Origin: an uncultured Alphaproteobacteria bacterium
GTDB taxonomy: Bacteria > Pseudomonadota > Alphaproteobacteria > Puniceispirillales > Puniceispirillaceae
DNA: 64,000 nucleotides
Direction: 5' to 3'
Assembly: GCA_938082345.1 (NCBI GenBank)
Contig: CALLKZ010000019.1
Location: forward strand, 1,538-65,537
Shown: one piece after another, positions 47,738 through 53,576 of the stretch
Numbering within the stretch: the first letter of the stretch is position 1
Layout of the letters: each line of letters starts with the position of its first letter
Notes under the pieces: model-generated
The model's database searches: none
What the model saw: the letters and a program-made list of their open reading frames with translations, nothing else
What the model was told of the DNA's origin: nothing
Translations under genes and position numbers: made by a program

Positions 47738-49642
47738 CTATTTTTTGTCAGCTTCGTCGTCGACCTCTTCAAAATCGGCATCGACAACGGTTTCATCGCC
47801 ACCTGTTGTTGCTCCCTCTTGGGATGGGTCCGCATCCTGCTCAGCTTGATAGGCAGCCTCGCCCATCTTCATCATCAACTGTGACAGCTCAGCAGATTTT
47901 GCTGTGACGCTTTCTATATCATCACTTTCAAGGGCTTCTTTTAAGGCAGCAATTCCAGCTTCGACTTCGGCCTTTGCTTCAGGTTCAGCTTTCTCACCAA
48001 GATCATCGATTGCTTTTTGCGCGCCATGCACCAAAGCTTCGCCCTGATTGCGCGTTTCAGCAGCATCGCGGCGTTTTTTATCTTCCTCGGCATTGGCTTC
48101 GGCCTCACTGACCATGCGGTCAATTTCGCTATCTTCCAGTCCACCAGACGCTTGAATCCGGATTTCCTGCTCTTTTCCGGTGGCTTTATCTTTCGCGCTG
48201 ACCTTAACGATGCCGTTGGCATCGATATCAAAAGTCACCTCAACCTGTGGAACACCCCGCGGGGCAGGGGCAATACCTTCCAGATTAAACTGGCCGAGAT
48301 GCTTATTATCAGAGGCCATTTCGCGCTCGCCCTGATAGACCGAAATGGTCACAGCGGACTGATTATCATCAGCAGTTGAGAAAACCTGACTTTTCTTTGT
48401 CGGGATTGTTGTATTGCGGTCAATCAGACGTGTGAAAACCCCGCCAAGGGTTTCAATGCCAAGCGACAATGGCGTCACGTCGAGAAGCAGAACATCCTTA
48501 ACCTCACCGGTCAGAACACCCGCCTGAATAGCCGCACCCGAGGCAACAACCTCGTCCGGGTTCACGCCGCGATGAGGTTCAGTTTCAAAAAATTCTTTCA
48601 CCGCTTCGATGATCTTTGGCATTCGGGTCATTCCGCCGACCAAAATTACTTCATCAATCTCGCTGGCCTTAATACCGGCATCTTTCAGCGCCGCTTTACA
48701 TGGCTTGATGGTACGCTGGATCAACTCCTCAACCAGCTGTTCCAGCTTGGAGCGGGTCATCTTTACATTCAGGTGCTTTGGTCCGGTTGCATCAGCGGTG
48801 ATAAAGGGAAGATTGACATCGGTCTGGATTGCCGAAGAAAGCTCAATCTTGGCTTTCTCAGCAGCTTCTTTTAGACGCTGGAGCGCGAGTTTGTCTTTAC
48901 GAAGATCGATACCCTCGCTCGATTTGAACTCATCAGCGAGGTACTGGATGATCTGATGATCAAAATCCTCTCCGCCAAGGAAGGTGTCTCCGTTTGTTGA
49001 TTTCACCTCAAAAACGCCGTCACCAACCTCAAGGATTGAAACGTCAAACGTGCCGCCGCCCAGGTCATAAACAACAATCAGACCCGATTCGCGCTGTTCC
49101 AGACCATAGGCCAAAGCCGCTGCGGTTGGCTCATTAATGATGCGCAGAACTTCAAGACCGGCAATTTTGCCAGCATCCTTGGTTGCTTGGCGCTGCGAAT
49201 CGTTAAAATAGGCTGGAACCGTGATCACAGCCTGCGTCACGCTTTCACCAAGATAGGCCTCGGCATCTTCTTTCAGTTTGCGAAGAACAAAGCTAGAAAT
49301 CTGGCTTGGTGAATAATCCTCGCCCTCAACCCGTACCCAAGCATCACCATTGCTGGAATCTGCTATTTCGTAGGGAACGAGTTCGGCGAATTTTTTCGTT
49401 GATTTGTCATCATGACGACGGCCAATCAGGCGTTTGATGGCGAATAGCGTGTTTTCCGGATTGGTTACGGCTTGGCGCTTTGCGGCCTGTCCGACAAGGC
49501 GTTCATCACCATCTGCAAAGGCAACCATTGACGGGGTGGTCCGGGCGCCTTCAGCGTTTTCAATCACACGCGCCTCTTTACCATCCATCACTGCTACGCA
49601 TGAATTTGTGGTTCCAAGGTCAATACCGATAACTTTGGCCAT
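47738..49642 (-). CDS. dnaK: Chaperone DnaK (Hsp70)
   Basis: [37 protein letters not shown]. Confidence 0.99.
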
Positions 49643-49824: not shown

Positions 49825-50553
49825 CTAATCTTTTTGCGGCGGCGGGTCTGTAGCAGGGGCCTTGGCCACACCAACCATCGCCGGTCGCAGCAACCTTTCA
49901 TGCAAAACATAGCCGTGCTGAACTACCTCAACCACCGTTCCGGGCTCTTGCTCGGCGGTTGGAACCTCAAACATGGCCTGATGGAAATTATAGTCGAACT
50001 TCTCGCCAAGCGGCTTAACTTGGCGAATGCCGTGACGCTCCATTGTTGACTGAATTTCAGACCAACTAAGTTCCAGTCCGGTAATGAGGCTCCCAATTGT
50101 TTCGGCCGACACCTGCTCATCAGCGGCAGGAGCGGCATCGATGGCGCGTGACAGATTATCTATCGCGCCAACCAGATCGCGTGAAAACCCTGTATGGCTA
50201 TATTTGCGCGCAGTTTCCATCTCGCGTTCGGTACGCCGACGCATATTTTCAACATCGGCTAAAGCTCGCAACAGCTGATCCTTTAGCGAGTCACGCTCAG
50301 CCAACAAGGCATCAAACGGATCAGCAGAACCCTCATCTTGAGACGAGGCGTCACCATCAGGGCCAAAATCTGATGCATCTTGAACGCCAGAATTATCGCC
50401 AGAATTATCGCCCGAATTATGGGGGCTCGGAGTCATGTCAGGGGTCGAACTTTCCTCTGCAGGGTCTGCTTGCTCCGGGTTCCCGGAAGTTGGGCCACCC
50501 TGCAAAAGAGTATCCTCCGGGGGTGTATCCCCAGTGTCATTCTGTTCTGTCAT
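49825..50553 (-). CDS. grpE: Nucleotide exchange factor GrpE (long acidic N-terminus)
   Basis: LLRALADVENMRRR, FDYNFHQAM, VVQHGYVLHERLLRPAMVGVAK; SGDN x3 12-bp repeat at 50386-50421. Confidence 0.97.
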   Translation of the reverse strand: MTEQNDTGDTPPEDTLLQGGPTSGNPEQADPAEESSTPDMTPSPHNSGDNSGDNSGVQDASDFGPDGDASSQDEGSADPFDALLAERDSLKDQLLRALADVENMRRRTEREMETARKYSHTGFSRDLVGAIDNLSRAIDAAPAADEQVSAETIGSLITGLELSWSEIQSTMERHGIRQVKPLGEKFDYNFHQAMFEVPTAEQEPGTVVEVVQHGYVLHERLLRPAMVGVAKAPATDPPPQKD

Positions 50554-50640: not shown

Positions 50641-50920
50641 TGGAAAACGCATAGTTTTTTCAAAAACATCGGCCGAATCGCCAATAATCGCCAATAAAAA
50701 CGCATTTTCGCGCTTAAAGAGCGAATTTCACGATCATCTTGACGCCAGAATTCGCCCCGCAATCGATTTGGATATGCTGATGTTATCTTGGCAAAATCTG
50801 GTTACAGCCAAATCTTGTCACTTAGTCTATTGCAACATTTATCATCGGGCTTAAACTATCGATTGAATCTAGGCATCCAAAATTTGATGCCCAAACTCTG
50901 GTTTGAAGGAGTAGCTGTTC

Positions 50921-51880
50921 ATGACGTCGGTGAGGCAGTCAATCACGGCTCAATCGATTACAGCTTTGTATGAAGAAGCTGAGCAACATGCAGGCGATGG
51001 CCCGCCGATGCTGGCACTTGTTCATTCAGCGCCAAATTCTGATTCGCTAACAAGTCCTGAGATAGGCCAAGACCCCGAGTTTGAACCAATTTCAATTACC
51101 CAGAGGCTCGAAACGCTGCATTATCTTGCCGAAAAAGAAGTTGCAACGGAAATCTTGCCCACCGAGCCGCCCACACCCAGCGCAATGGACACACCCTCCG
51201 ATCTTAATATGGGCGATATTCATGAATTGGTTCGGCAAGCGTGGGAAGATGATGCCGCTCTTGGAAATCAGGTAAAACCGGCGGTAGAAACGCTGCCAGA
51301 GTCCGACTCGGAGCCCAATATTGAGATCGCAATGGAGGAAATTGCAGCGGCGGTTGAAGACTCAACTCCCAATTCTGATTCCCAAACCTCGGATCAGAAG
51401 ATTTTGGATCAAAGTCTTTTGGATCAAAGTATTTCACGTCAAAATATCTCGAACGACAATTTAGCCGGCAGAAAAACCGAAAGTTCGAATGACCTGGCGA
51501 ATGACCCCGCACCCGCAAACGACACGGTAAATGACACCGGGAATGACACCGGGAATCACAAGGTGAACGACACCTTGATCGGGGATGTGAGCGAGGATGT
51601 AACCAGCAATTTTAGGGACTACATAAATGCCACAATCAGAAGCGAATTGCGCCTTGCTCTTGCTGACAGTCTGAGCAAGGACCTGAACGGCATTATTGGC
51701 GATATCATAAAGGATGTTGTGAGCGATACCGTAACGCAAATTCTTGACGGACCAGTTGCCAAAAAATCCACGGAGAAAAAGCCTGCAGCCAAGAAAGCTA
51801 CAGCAAAAAAACCTGCGTCGAAGAGAACCACATCAAAGAAATCCGCAGCAAAGAAAACTGTATCTAAAAAACGCAACTAG
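50921..51880 (+). CDS. Hypothetical acidic disordered protein with PopZ/DUF2497-like C-terminal helices and Lys/Ala-rich H1-like tail
   Basis: Strong SD (AAGGAG, 8 nt spacing); D/E/P/S/T-rich; IRSELRLALADSLSKDLNGIIGDIIKDVV; tail KKSTEKKPAAKKATAKKPASKRTTSKKSAAKKTVSKKRN. The CDS is well supported; the PopZ similarity is by eye. Confidence 0.75.
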   Translation: MTSVRQSITAQSITALYEEAEQHAGDGPPMLALVHSAPNSDSLTSPEIGQDPEFEPISITQRLETLHYLAEKEVATEILPTEPPTPSAMDTPSDLNMGDIHELVRQAWEDDAALGNQVKPAVETLPESDSEPNIEIAMEEIAAAVEDSTPNSDSQTSDQKILDQSLLDQSISRQNISNDNLAGRKTESSNDLANDPAPANDTVNDTGNDTGNHKVNDTLIGDVSEDVTSNFRDYINATIRSELRLALADSLSKDLNGIIGDIIKDVVSDTVTQILDGPVAKKSTEKKPAAKKATAKKPASKRTTSKKSAAKKTVSKKRN

Positions 51881-51993: not shown

Positions 51994-52494
51994 ATGCAGT
52001 TGCTGTGCCCCCATTGCCGGACGTCGGTTCAAATCCCGGATGTCTTTTCACGGTTTTTTGATATCCCGGTGGTGTGTTATCTTTGTGGGCGGGCGTTTGC
52101 CGTTCCCCCTCAGAACCCCGATTACGACAATATTACCAGCAATATTACCGGCAATATTACCGCCAACCCCCCTAATCACCTGTTTGAACGGTTGGTTTCA
52201 GCCCATCACCACAATCACATCATCACCTGCACAGCCTGCAAAAGCAAAATCGGGCTTGCCGGAACCAAATCTCACGCATCTCCACCCACCAATATTATAA
52301 CTGAAGATATCGAAGTTAGATGTCCGGTATGTGGTGAAGATTTCGTCCATAATTCACAGCAATCTTGGTCGGAGAGCCACGGCTTTTTGTGGACAGTGGT
52401 TGCGGGGCTGGCACTTGCAGCAATTGTCTTGATGCTGAATTACTTCGGCTTCATCTCGCTGCGCAATGCGGCAATACTGCTATCATTTAGCTAA
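51994..52494 (+). CDS. Hypothetical double zinc-ribbon (MJ0042/zinc_ribbon_4-5-like) protein with C-terminal TM anchor
   Basis: CPHC..CYLC and CTAC..CPVC pairs; hydrophobic FLWTVVAGLALAAIVLMLNYFGF; start taken at ATG 51994 (MQLLCPHC); 12-bp repeat x3 at 52128-52163 (NITS/NITG/NITA). Confidence 0.8.
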   Translation: MQLLCPHCRTSVQIPDVFSRFFDIPVVCYLCGRAFAVPPQNPDYDNITSNITGNITANPPNHLFERLVSAHHHNHIITCTACKSKIGLAGTKSHASPPTNIITEDIEVRCPVCGEDFVHNSQQSWSESHGFLWTVVAGLALAAIVLMLNYFGFISLRNAAILLSFS

Positions 52495-52497
52495 AAT

Positions 52498-53568
52498 TTA
52501 GCTGAGAACCGCAGCAATGGCCTTGCTGGTATAATCAACCATCGGGATAATTCGCGCATAATTCATATGCCGCGGCCCCAAAACACCAATCGCGCCGATA
52601 ACCGTCTGGTTGGCGTTGTGATAAGGCGCGATGACCAACGAGCAGCCGGTATTCACGAACAGATTATTCTCCGCACCAATGAAAATCTTCACGCCATCAC
52701 CATTACCCGTCGCCGATAATAGCCGCAAAGCATTTTCGCGCGCCTCAAGCTCATCAAAAAGTTGGCGAATAGTGCTAAGATCTTCGCCCGTATCAAGCGA
52801 GTCAAACATTGTAGCATCCAGCAAATTGGACTGGCCGCGCATCACCAGAACAGTTTCTTCCGAGGCATTTCCCTCAGACCACAACCCAACGCCCTGTTCC
52901 ACCAGACGCCGTGACATTTCATCAAGCTCGGCACGTTGCGCCGCTATTTCCGAGCGAATCAACCCGGTGGCAGCGGTCAGATCGCGCCCCGAAAGCCGGG
53001 CATTCATATAGTTGCTGGCGCGGATCAGCGCTGATTGCGGCACCCCTGCCGGAAGATCAATCAGGCGGTTTTCAACCTTGCCATCCATCCGCACCAAAAC
53101 CGCCAACGCACGTTTTTCACCCAACGGAACAAATTCAAAATGCTGAAGTTCGGCATTGCTGGCAGGCGACAGAACAAGACTGGCACATTGCGAAAGCCCG
53201 GACAGTGTACGACTGGTTTTTTCCAGCAATTCATCAACCGAAATGCCCCGCGTGGCGCATTCACCGTCAATCGACATCCGATCTTCTTTGGTCAGATCAT
53301 TGGTGAATTCCATTAATCCATCAACAAACATCCGCAAACCGGTCTCGGTCGGAACGCGCCCCGCCGAGATATGCGGCGAGAAGAGCAACCCCGCCTGTTC
53401 CAAATCACTCATGTTACTGCGAACTGATGCCGGCGAGAGATCATGTTTCAAATGTCTCGCCAGTGTTTTTGACCCGATGGGCTGGCCAGTTTCAAGATAC
53501 GCACCGACTAGCGCGTTGAAAATCTCAAGAGCGCGAGGTTTCAATCCGAGAAGGGTGGCGTCATTCAT
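52498..53568 (-). CDS. hrcA: Heat-inducible transcription repressor HrcA
   Basis: YLETGQPIGSKTL, SPASVRSNMSDLE..GLL..PHISAGRVPT..GLRMFVD, GVLGPRHMNY. Confidence 0.96.
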   Translation of the reverse strand: MNDATLLGLKPRALEIFNALVGAYLETGQPIGSKTLARHLKHDLSPASVRSNMSDLEQAGLLFSPHISAGRVPTETGLRMFVDGLMEFTNDLTKEDRMSIDGECATRGISVDELLEKTSRTLSGLSQCASLVLSPASNAELQHFEFVPLGEKRALAVLVRMDGKVENRLIDLPAGVPQSALIRASNYMNARLSGRDLTAATGLIRSEIAAQRAELDEMSRRLVEQGVGLWSEGNASEETVLVMRGQSNLLDATMFDSLDTGEDLSTIRQLFDELEARENALRLLSATGNGDGVKIFIGAENNLFVNTGCSLVIAPYHNANQTVIGAIGVLGPRHMNYARIIPMVDYTSKAIAAVLS

Positions 53569-53576
53569 CAAACCAG

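What the first reader, a model, noticed from the sequence alone, without database searches (positions are those of the whole stretch)
50921..51880. Acidic disordered protein with PopZ-like oligomerisation helices fused to a histone-H1-like tail
Seen: short amphipathic helices (SITALYEEAE, GDIHELVRQAW, EPNIEIAMEEIAAAV) separated by D/E/P/S/T-rich linkers. These are followed by IRSELRLALADSLSKDLNGIIGDIIKDVV and a ~40-aa K/A-rich tail. The hydrophobic register of that segment matches my recollection of the PopZ C-terminal consensus (approx. VRxxLRPMLKEWLDxNLPxLVERLVRxEI), including the L-R, L-x3-L-x3-L and I/L-I/V-x2-I/L-I/V positions. The PopZ proteins I know end at those helices. An acidic body plus a strongly basic tail is a charge-block design that could drive condensation or DNA/RNA binding (inference).
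Basis: partly seen in the sequence, partly recalled or inferred. Interest (0 to 1): 0.7.

Follow-up and report, generated by a model that had tools for sequence, protein, structure and literature searches.

The report
SAR116 PopZ-like scaffold with basic tail
This gene encodes a fast-evolving, mostly disordered acidic protein found only in the marine SAR116 family; its last helices weakly but reproducibly resemble the self-assembly domain of the pole-organising protein PopZ, it ends in a lysine-rich tail, and it always sits next to a small membrane zinc-finger protein resembling PopZ's partner ZitP, so it is probably a second, undescribed scaffold-plus-anchor module.

Summary
The ORF 50921-51880 (+, 319 aa) is a real gene. 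It has a good RBS, near-identical copies in many metagenomes, metatranscriptome coverage, and about 67 clusters of relatives, all SAR116/Puniceispirillaceae. The described anatomy is correct: six predicted helices separated by acidic disordered linkers (body net -38, pI 4.05), then a 39-43 aa K/A tail (+16).

The PopZ reading is only partly supported. The protein itself does not hit DUF2497 (no Pfam hit at E<=10; 0.1 bits against a PopZ C-terminal HMM). hhalign gives P=3.6e-4 full length and 3.4e-5 for the C-terminal module, against a shuffle maximum of 22 for a real score of 31. That is as strong as this order's own tolC-valS-linked PopZ orthologues score.

It is not the positional popZ, because the genome has another PopZ-like gene between tolC and valS, plus a canonical ZitP.

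The gene is always followed by a tail-anchored double zinc-ribbon protein. Its first finger has ZitP's C5/C8/C28/C31 register with F35 in place of W35. The pair is inserted between grpE and hrcA across most genera of the family.

Best reading: a PopZ-like paralogous hub with a ZitP-like membrane anchor and a polyanion (DNA)-binding tail. It is a new variant of a known kind, of moderate interest.

The parts
50905..50911 (+). Shine-Dalgarno GAAGGAG, 9 nt upstream of the ATG
   Evidence: read directly from the sequence
50921..51880 (+). Gene for the 319-aa acidic scaffold protein (P0001), stop codon included
50924..50998 (+). N-terminal conserved helix (res 2-26), family motif V[RWM][QK]SIxALxxEA...G.PMxAV. 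This genome carries a 5-residue duplication (QSITA-QSITA).
   Evidence: alignments; AF2 helix; duplication fixed in 10 population variants
51095..51145 (+). Helix 2 (res 59-75), motif I(V/A)xRF(D/E)ELRRLAE, present in genus g1 and partly elsewhere
51155..51178 (+). LPTEPPTP, the invariant LPxEPPxP proline motif of the family
   Evidence: invariant columns L79 P80 E82 P83 P84 P86
51209..51271 (+). Helix 3 (res 97-117), DLxIGDIxELVRQAWEDE motif
51311..51361 (+). Helix 4 (res 131-147), IExAMEEIAAAV motif. hhalign aligns it to the PopZ helix preceding the oligomerisation helices.
51365..51577 (+). Species-specific N/D/S/T-rich low-complexity insert (res 149-219) with 15-nt and 12-nt tandem repeats; absent from other family members
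51578..51745 (+). Long C-terminal helix (res 220-275), the PopZ-like module (VRxVLxxELPxMVxxAV in divergent members)
   Evidence: AF2; hhalign
51749..51877 (+). K/A-rich basic tail (res 277-319), 10-residue KKxAAKKxTx repeats, predicted disordered
51994..52494 (+). Partner gene: 166-aa tail-anchored double zinc-ribbon protein. The probable start is ATG 51994, matching orthologues; the ORF lister starts it at TTG 51961.
51994..52104 (+). Zinc ribbon 1, MJ0042/Zn_ribbon_4-5 type, Cys at positions 5, 8, 28, 31 and Phe35 (ZitP register)
   Evidence: TIGR02098 scores 21.7 bits against a cut-off of 20.9; an orthologue scores 30.1 on PF13719 against 29.3; register compared with PMC5182065 and PDB 2nb9
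52228..52332 (+). Zinc ribbon 2 (CxxC-x27-CxxC)
   Evidence: invariant Cys; weak match to the AgmX zinc ribbon 7zok, E=0.068
52384..52461 (+). C-terminal hydrophobic transmembrane segment FLWTVVAGLALAAIVLMLNYFGFISL, followed by only 10 residues
   Evidence: read directly from the sequence; conserved position
49825..50553 (-). grpE, divergent upstream neighbour (dnaK at 47738-49642)
   Evidence: Pfam of syntenic loci
52498..53571 (-). hrcA, convergent downstream neighbour

Best explanation
P0001 is a lineage-specific (SAR116, family Puniceispirillaceae) scaffold protein built like PopZ. It has a conserved N-terminal amphipathic helix, an acidic proline-containing disordered body studded with short conserved helices (likely binding sites), and a C-terminal helical module that is probably a remote homologue of the PopZ self-assembly domain (DUF2497). 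It is a paralogue or analogue, not the positional popZ. It probably works as a pair with the downstream gene. That gene encodes a tail-anchored inner-membrane protein whose first zinc ribbon has the ZitP zinc-finger register. By analogy with ZitP-PopZ, this partner would hold or position the self-assembling scaffold at the membrane. The K/A tail adds a polyanion-binding end, most likely for non-specific nucleoid DNA. Alternatively, it could pair with the acidic body of neighbouring molecules to drive coacervation. Shown: the gene and family are real; the modular anatomy; the charge blocks; the conserved gene pair and its insertion site; the weak but reproducible profile similarity to the PopZ C-terminus; and the zinc-finger type of the partner. 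Inferred: self-assembly, the physical interaction with the partner, and what the tail binds.
For: Family and anatomy. PopZ similarity always falls on the same about 60 columns of the PopZ C-terminal domain: P=8e-3, 3.8e-3 from a non-overlapping subset, 3.6e-4 full length with 54 representatives, and 3.4e-5 with probability 72% for the module alone. The match to the order's own mini-PopZ gives P=8.4e-4. The shuffle control has a maximum of 22.2 against a real score of 31.3, and the reversed alignment scores 12.0. One divergent member hits Pfam DUF2497 over positions 6-71 of 75, at E=0.17. Calibration: positional (tolC-valS) PopZ orthologues of this order score no better against PopZ (P=2e-4 and 1.1e-4). 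The family also matches one of them at P=2.6e-4. Partner: it lies directly downstream in 17 of 18 family loci spanning at least 4 genera, and in 4 more genera with very divergent scaffold versions. Its finger is MJ0042-type and above the curated cut-offs. Only two ORFs in this genome have the M-x3-CxxC-x19-CxxC register: this partner and the canonical ZitP. A membrane-anchored ZitP zinc finger without DUF3426 is sufficient to redirect PopZ in Caulobacter (PMC5182065). A basic tail on a PopZ-like protein recurs in the order: the tolC-linked PopZ-like protein of a sister family carries an S/K-rich tail ending in an AT-hook-like GKRGRPPK. Expression: metatranscriptome contigs lie on both genes.
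Against: No HMM-to-sequence hit to DUF2497 for this protein. hhalign probabilities are 5-72%, below the usual confidence level, and column shuffling destroys helix periodicity, so part of the signal could be generic amphipathic-helix likeness. The N-terminal helix shows no significant match to the PopZ client-binding helix (P=0.13-0.26). In genus g1, including this protein, the NLP/ELP proline of the PopZ-like helix is lost. The partner has F35, not the W35 required in ZitP, and this genome's copy lacks the K18/R24/R27 basic residues. A complete genome of the same family (L094) has the cassette but no K/A tail, so the tail is dispensable in at least one genus. No interaction, assembly or DNA-binding data exist.
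Confidence: 0.5

Rival explanations
1. This is an unrelated lineage-specific disordered protein. On this view the similarity to PopZ is convergent (amphipathic helices plus an acidic linker), and the protein is essentially a nucleoid-associated or membrane-nucleoid tether. Its function would reside in the K/A tail, and the acidic body would act as an autoinhibitory or DNA-mimicking counter-ion. The zinc-ribbon partner would be its membrane receptor, with no relation to ZitP-PopZ.
For: No direct DUF2497 hit. hhalign probabilities are mostly below 50%. The K/A tail gives the only database hits: HC2 at 24 bits and hist_H1_lk_Burk at 19.8 bits. The gene pair and charge blocks are conserved.
Against: The profile match falls on the same PopZ columns in independent family subsets and exceeds 100 of 100 shuffles. 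The most conserved parts of the family are the helices, not the tail. One genus lacks the tail altogether. The partner's first finger has the exact ZitP Cys register.
Confidence: 0.3
2. This is a proteostasis or heat-shock accessory. On this view the pair sits between grpE-dnaK-dnaJ and hrcA because it acts with the chaperone system, for example as a disordered holdase or a membrane-bound sensor of unfolded protein, and is co-regulated with it.
For: The position between grpE and hrcA is strictly conserved in every locus examined. The gene is divergent from grpE and shares a 367-bp intergenic region with it.
Against: No CIRCE operator in the window at up to 3 mismatches. The pair is on the opposite strand to all heat-shock genes. 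Sister lineages have hrcA and grpE directly adjacent without it (L095, L099), so it looks like an insertion into that site. No chaperone-related domain is detected.
Confidence: 0.1
3. This protein is the functional PopZ of this genus. On this view the tolC-valS-linked gene has decayed and the cassette protein has taken over polar organisation.
For: In genus g1 the positional candidate matches PopZ worse (P=0.083) than the cassette family does. In this genome the positional candidate ends right after ...IDAWLASQNSK, so it lacks the last PopZ helix.
Against: The positional gene is retained with a conserved N-terminal helix and a conserved WRSP...DPTD...RLAEEADKVA core across the genus, so it is under selection. 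Other genera keep both genes, e.g. G024 with L006 plus L098. A canonical W35 ZitP is also retained.
Confidence: 0.1

Closest known systems
PopZ (polar organizing protein Z; Pfam PF10691/DUF2497) of Alphaproteobacteria
   Same: Same class of bacteria. Shared architecture: a short conserved N-terminal helix, an acidic proline-containing disordered linker, and C-terminal helices. The family's C-terminal module aligns to PopZ columns about 166-228 of 238 in profile-profile comparison. It is associated with an MJ0042-type zinc-finger membrane protein.
   Different: No HMM-level DUF2497 hit. The N-terminal helix motif differs (VRQSIxALYEEA against SMEEILASIRRIISED). There are extra conserved helices (IVARFDELRRLAE, DIxELVRQAWEDE). 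A K/A basic tail follows, whereas 30 of 30 canonical PopZ proteins end after the helices. The gene lies between grpE and hrcA rather than tolC and valS (PMC6414705). It coexists with a positional PopZ-like gene.
ZitP (zinc-finger targeting the poles; ZnR-TM-DUF3426), PDB 2nb9
   Same: The partner has an N-terminal MJ0042/Zn_ribbon_5 finger with Cys at 5, 8, 28, 31 and an aromatic residue at 35, followed by a linker and one TM segment. In Caulobacter the membrane-anchored ZnR alone controls PopZ (PMC5182065).
   Different: F35 instead of the essential W35. The basic patch is only partly kept. There is a second zinc ribbon, no DUF3426, and almost nothing beyond the TM segment. The genome has a separate canonical ZitP at G000:C120:29707-30315.
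Histone-H1-like K/A tails (chlamydial Hc2 PF07382, Burkholderia H1-like NF038053, AlgP, PhaF C-terminus)
   Same: AKKA/KKPA-type repeats, strong positive charge and predicted disorder. In these other proteins, from general knowledge, such tails bind DNA non-specifically.
   Different: The only hits are below cut-off and compositional (24.4 of 40 bits; 19.8 of 80 bits). Here the tail is appended to a large acidic scaffold, and it is missing in one genus.
tolC-valS-linked PopZ-like protein with basic AT-hook tail in a sister SAR116 family (L007, P0180)
   Same: A PopZ-like C-terminal helix followed directly by a long basic tail. It matches the P0001 family profile at P=2.6e-4 in that helix.
   Different: It occupies the canonical popZ slot. 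Its tail is S/K/T-rich with a GKRGRPPK AT-hook-like end. It has no adjacent zinc-ribbon gene in the locus, and only one relative was found in 5.8 billion proteins.

Membership tests
PopZ / DUF2497 (PF10691) | Pfam DUF2497 HMM match at or above the gathering score (27 bits) | tested here: not met
   No hit for P0001 at E<=10. No hit in the whole genome at E<=1. The best family member scores 12.8 bits, E=0.17. P0001 scores 0.1 bits against a PopZ C-terminal HMM.
PopZ / DUF2497 (PF10691) | Homology of the C-terminal helical (oligomerisation) domain, detectable by profile-profile comparison | tested here: inconclusive
   hhalign P=3.6e-4 (probability 37%) full length and P=3.4e-5 (probability 72%) for the module. 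The same columns are matched in independent subsets, and the score beats 100 of 100 shuffles. This is comparable to the order's positional PopZ orthologues.
PopZ / DUF2497 (PF10691) | N-terminal client-binding helix (xPSMEEILASIRRIISED) | tested here: not met
   A conserved N-terminal helix exists but does not align to the PopZ N-terminus (best alternative hits P=0.13-0.26).
PopZ / DUF2497 (PF10691) | Acidic, proline-rich disordered linker between the N- and C-terminal helices | tested here: met
   Body pI 4.05, net -38; invariant LPxEPPxP; pLDDT below 50 in the linkers.
PopZ / DUF2497 (PF10691) | Conserved genomic position next to valS and an outer-membrane efflux (TolC-like) gene | tested here: not met
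   The gene lies between grpE and hrcA. The PCMT-OEP-X-ValRS slot at G000:C60 holds a different PopZ-like ORF. The synteny rule comes from PMC6414705.
PopZ / DUF2497 (PF10691) | Self-assembly into a polar, nucleoid-excluded matrix | not testable with these tools
   Needs microscopy or biophysics. A single-chain AF2 model shows only one long helix at 220-275.
ZitP-type zinc-finger anchor (partner gene 51994-52494) | N-terminal MJ0042/Zn_ribbon_5 finger with four Cys in the C5/C8/C28/C31 register | tested here: met
   TIGR02098 scores 21.7 against a cut-off of 20.9. An orthologue scores 30.1 on PF13719 against 29.3. The register is seen in only 2 ORFs of the genome. Compared with 2nb9.
ZitP-type zinc-finger anchor (partner gene 51994-52494) | Invariant Trp35 and the basic patch K18/R24/R27/R34 needed for PopZ binding (PMC5182065) | tested here: not met
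   Phe35 is invariant in the partner family. R20 and R33 are conserved. R27 is present in several orthologues, but this genome has V27.
ZitP-type zinc-finger anchor (partner gene 51994-52494) | Transmembrane segment followed by a periplasmic DUF3426 | tested here: not met
   A TM segment is present at 52384-52461, but only 10 residues follow and there is no DUF3426. DUF3426 is found instead in the canonical ZitP at C120.
Histone H1-like / Hc2 (PF07382, NF038052/3) | Match at or above the curated cut-off | tested here: not met
   HC2 scores 24.4 bits against 40. NF038053 scores 19.8 against 80. NF038052 scores 18 against 135. All matches are confined to residues 279-317.

The most novel reading that the evidence does not exclude
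Puniceispirillaceae carry a second, self-contained PopZ/ZitP-like module. It would consist of a PopZ-derived self-assembling acidic hub that has gained a histone-like DNA-binding tail, and a minimal tail-anchored ZitP-like zinc-finger receptor. Together they would form a direct membrane-scaffold-nucleoid tether or condensate. This would run in parallel with the canonical PopZ-ZitP-ParB system that the same genomes retain.
Probability: 0.3. Interest if true: 0.7.

Novelty: new variant of a known kind. Interest (0 to 1): 0.55.

Why it matters
PopZ is the model bacterial condensate-forming hub, and its partner ZitP is the only known membrane factor that repositions it. A duplicated, strongly diverged hub-plus-anchor pair in one of the most abundant marine bacterial clades would show how such modules diversify. 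In particular, a PopZ-like self-assembly domain joined to a basic tail would turn a nucleoid-excluded scaffold into a nucleoid- or polyanion-binding one. The family offers natural variants for testing: tail present or absent, proline present or absent in the helix, and linkers of 60-250 residues. SAR116 isolates are in culture (PMC12262181 lists comparative physiology of isolates), and all predictions can first be tested by heterologous expression in E. coli, as was done for PopZ and ZitP.

Tried and rejected
1. Direct family searches (Pfam, NCBIfam) gave only sub-threshold K/A-tail hits, plus a compositional ValRS-extension hit.

2. PDB sequence search with the family profile gave no match at E<=10. 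I did not run a fold search, because the model has pTM 0.24 and is not globular.

3. Several weak DUF2497 hits in related genomes were chance or unrelated. These were 394-412 aa frames in sister families: an EamA-type transporter with a PopZ-like C-terminal helix (L011) and an acyl-CoA dehydrogenase (L012). The top hit of my PopZ HMM in the own genome was the Pro/Ala linker of an E2 acyltransferase.

4. The PopZ N-terminal helix against the family's N-terminal helix or AMEEIAAAV motif showed no significant match.

5. No CIRCE operator is present. The sigma-70 and terminator scans were not above shuffle expectation in a useful way.

6. I planned to test whether lineages lacking the cassette have basic-tailed positional PopZ proteins. 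A protein search with the one tailed example found only one relative.

7. The representative-library search found no relatives outside the family and no bridge to canonical PopZ.
Full report
**1. The observation**

A GAAGGAG Shine-Dalgarno sequence lies 9 nt upstream of the ATG. The N-terminus (M-x-x-VRQSITALYEE) coincides with that of all homologues, so the start is right.

AlphaFold2 with a 24-sequence alignment gives pTM 0.24, so there is no globular fold. It predicts six helices (2-26, 59-75, 97-117, 131-147, 157-179, 220-275) separated by low-confidence linkers, and a disordered tail at 276-319.

The body has net charge -38 (pI 4.05). The last 39 residues carry +16 and are 44% K+R. At the DNA level the tail is a 30-nt x2.8 repeat.

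Ten 98-100% identical proteins from independent contigs show that this exact version is stable in the population. That includes a 5-residue duplication in the N-terminal helix and a 70-residue N/D/S/T-rich insert.

Metatranscriptome contigs from four runs lie on parts of the gene and of the next gene at 98% identity or more. This is modest evidence of expression, because DNA carry-over cannot be excluded.

**2. The family**

The word-indexed search found 174 relatives of 270-430 aa. The few that carry names are Candidatus Puniceispirillaceae / SAR116 MAGs. An exhaustive profile search of 1.84 billion representatives found only 67 clusters at E<=1e-3. All belong to this family, with no spill-over to other K/A-rich proteins.

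In whole genomes of the order, the profile detects the family only in the window's own family (f1).

Alignment of divergent genera shows the universal core:
- an N-terminal helix V[RWM][QK]SIxALxxEA..G.PMxAV;
- LPxEPPxP;
- (A)MxEIAAA(V/I);
- a C-terminal helix, VRxVLxxELPxMVxxAV in the divergent genera;
- a K/A tail.

The charge-block design holds in all 36 members examined, with body -5 to -56 and tail +7 to +27.

**3. Context**

In every locus the order is dnaJ-dnaK-grpE (-) | scaffold (+), zinc-ribbon protein (+) | hrcA (-), then rph-rdgB-hemN.

The zinc-ribbon gene follows directly in 17 of 18 loci. Some copies are broken or masked in MAGs.

I then looked at the same grpE-hrcA slot in genera where the profile had found nothing. 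Four more genera carry a very divergent scaffold (N-terminal SIExLYxxA helix, PFxAIRxAV motif) plus the zinc-ribbon gene.

A sister family (L095) and one genus of the own family (L099) have hrcA and grpE directly adjacent. The pair is therefore a family-wide, co-inherited, fast-evolving cassette inserted into the hrcA-grpE site.

In a complete 2,753,527-bp genome of the family (L094) the scaffold ends ...ELRATHDDKAKSTPSDR, with no K/A tail in any frame. The tail is therefore typical of the family but not indispensable.

**4. Is it PopZ?**

Direct tests fail.
- P0001 has no DUF2497 hit at E<=10.
- The whole genome has none at E<=1.
- Against an HMM of the C-terminal domain of 30 canonical PopZ proteins, P0001 scores 0.1 bits and ranks 717th of about 21,000 six-frame ORFs.

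At the family level the picture changes. hhalign against an alignment of 30 canonical PopZ proteins always places the best local alignment on the same stretch: family AMEEIAAAV...C-terminal helix against PopZ columns about 166-228 of 238.

| Family alignment | P | Probability |
|---|---|---|
| 24 g1-type members | 8e-3 | |
| 8 members of other genera only | 3.8e-3 | |
| 54 representatives, full length | 3.6e-4 | 37% |
| C-terminal module alone | 3.4e-5 | 72% |
| C-terminal module against the order's own 115-124 aa mini-PopZ | 8.4e-4 | |

In controls, 100 column shuffles of the module scored 12.0 +/- 2.8 (maximum 22.2) against 31.3 for the real alignment, and the reversed alignment scored 12.0. 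One divergent member gives a collinear Pfam DUF2497 alignment over positions 6-71 of 75, at E=0.17.

As a yardstick, the order's positional PopZ orthologues score P=2e-4 and 1.1e-4 against the same PopZ alignment. The P0001 family matches one of them at P=2.6e-4. In this fast-evolving lineage, the cassette protein is thus about as PopZ-like as genes whose orthology is supported by synteny.

I put homology of the C-terminal module to DUF2497 at roughly 60%. The N-terminal helix shows no significant similarity to the PopZ client-binding helix.

**5. It is not the positional popZ**

popZ lies next to valS and an outer-membrane efflux gene in Caulobacter and Magnetospirillum (PMC6414705).

In this genome, contig C60 carries PCMT - OEP (TolC-like) - a 237-aa ORF - ValRS. 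That ORF has an N-terminal DEAAIEAIRQLVEDN helix and a C-terminal ELRSIVRDHIDAWLASQ helix. Its orthologue in the same genus gives a weak DUF2497 hit, E=0.05.

The same slot holds weak-DUF2497 proteins in another genus (L006) and in a sister family (L007).

The genome also has a canonical ZitP: Zn_ribbon_4/5 + TM + DUF3426, with W35, matching PDB 2nb9 at E=9e-8. ParB is present as well.

The cassette is therefore an additional module, not a relocated popZ.

**6. The partner**

The downstream protein probably starts at ATG 51994 and is 166 aa long. It has two CxxC...CxxC ribbons and a C-terminal hydrophobic segment followed by only 10 residues.

Evidence on the first ribbon:
- It passes NCBIfam's MJ0042 cut-off, 21.7 against 20.9.
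- An orthologue passes Pfam Zn_ribbon_5, the family of ZitP's finger, 30.1 against 29.3.
- Counted from its Met, the cysteines are at 5, 8, 28 and 31, exactly as in Caulobacter ZitP. Position 35 is an invariant Phe where ZitP has the Trp required for PopZ binding (PMC5182065).
- Only this ORF and the canonical ZitP have that register in the genome.

The second ribbon weakly resembles the AgmX zinc ribbon, E=0.068.

In Caulobacter, a membrane-anchored ZitP finger without DUF3426, even with a foreign TM segment, is enough to redirect PopZ (PMC5182065). A minimal finger-plus-anchor protein is therefore a plausible receptor for a PopZ-like scaffold.

**7. The tail**

The database hits to the tail are below cut-off and compositional: HC2 24.4 of 40 bits, H1-like NF038053 19.8 of 80. 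The case for DNA binding is therefore inference from composition.

One parallel supports it. The positional PopZ-like protein of a sister family (L007, and its single relative P0180) also continues after the PopZ-like helix into a long basic tail. That tail ends in an AT-hook-like GKRGRPPK.

Canonical PopZ never has such a tail, 0 of 30. The alternatives for the tail are binding of RNA, polyphosphate or acidic lipids, or pairing with the acidic body in trans (coacervation).

**8. Verdict**

My best reading, at about 0.5, is a PopZ-like paralogous hub working with a ZitP-like tail-anchored receptor and carrying a polyanion-binding tail. The rivals are:
- a convergent, unrelated nucleoid/membrane tether (about 0.3);
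- a heat-shock accessory (about 0.1; no CIRCE, opposite strand, insertion-like distribution);
- replacement of a decaying positional PopZ (about 0.1).

No paper in the held library links PopZ to SAR116. The family has no Pfam, NCBIfam or PDB relative. I rate it a new variant of a known kind, of moderate interest.

The planned survey of tolC-valS slots in lineages without the cassette was therefore not done.

Noticed in passing
G000:C60:2456-3178 (own genome, outside the window; locus L084): Positional PopZ-like ORF between a TolC-like OEP gene and valS. In this genome it stops right after ...IDAWLASQNSK, so it lacks the last helix that same-genus orthologues have (…AWLAKHSPEEVQDALRARV…). Its frame overlaps the valS frame. 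hhalign of this small family against PopZ gives only P=0.083.
   Followed up: partly
L007:1183-1890 (-), and protein P0180: In a sister SAR116 family, the tolC-valS-linked PopZ-like protein (DUF2497 at 18-19 bits) carries a roughly 100-aa S/K/T-rich basic tail ending in an AT-hook-like GKRGRPPKATT. Only one relative was found in 5.8 billion proteins.
   Followed up: partly
L011:1397-2599 (+); similar 394-412 aa frames in four genomes of one genus: An EamA/DMT-type multi-pass transporter ends in a cytoplasmic helix, EKLLIPSLNNWMDKNLKKVLQKNIKDQINEIKN. This gives weak DUF2497 hits (E 0.006-0.1) in the genomes that also have a 115-124 aa mini-PopZ. It may be a PopZ-like helix fused to a membrane protein.
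   Followed up: no
window 50936-50965: A 15-nt tandem duplication (QSITA-QSITA) sits inside the most conserved N-terminal helix. It is unique to this species and present in all 10 near-identical population variants.
   Followed up: partly
window 51391-51434, 51530-51560 and 52128-52166: Short in-frame tandem repeats occur in both genes of the cassette: 15-nt LDQS-type and 12-nt NDTG in the scaffold, and 12-nt NIT[SG] in the zinc-ribbon protein. They suggest ongoing repeat expansion in the linkers of both partners.
   Followed up: no
L094:2583-3446 (+), a complete 2,753,527-bp genome of the same family: This genome has the cassette (scaffold plus zinc-ribbon gene between grpE and hrcA), but the scaffold lacks the K/A tail. 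It is a natural tail-less variant.
   Followed up: partly
G000:C12:16435-17349 (own genome): A third zinc-ribbon membrane protein has two CxxC...CxxC ribbons, a TM segment and a weak DUF3426-like C-terminus (E=0.099). The genome thus has a small set of ZitP-related anchors.
   Followed up: no
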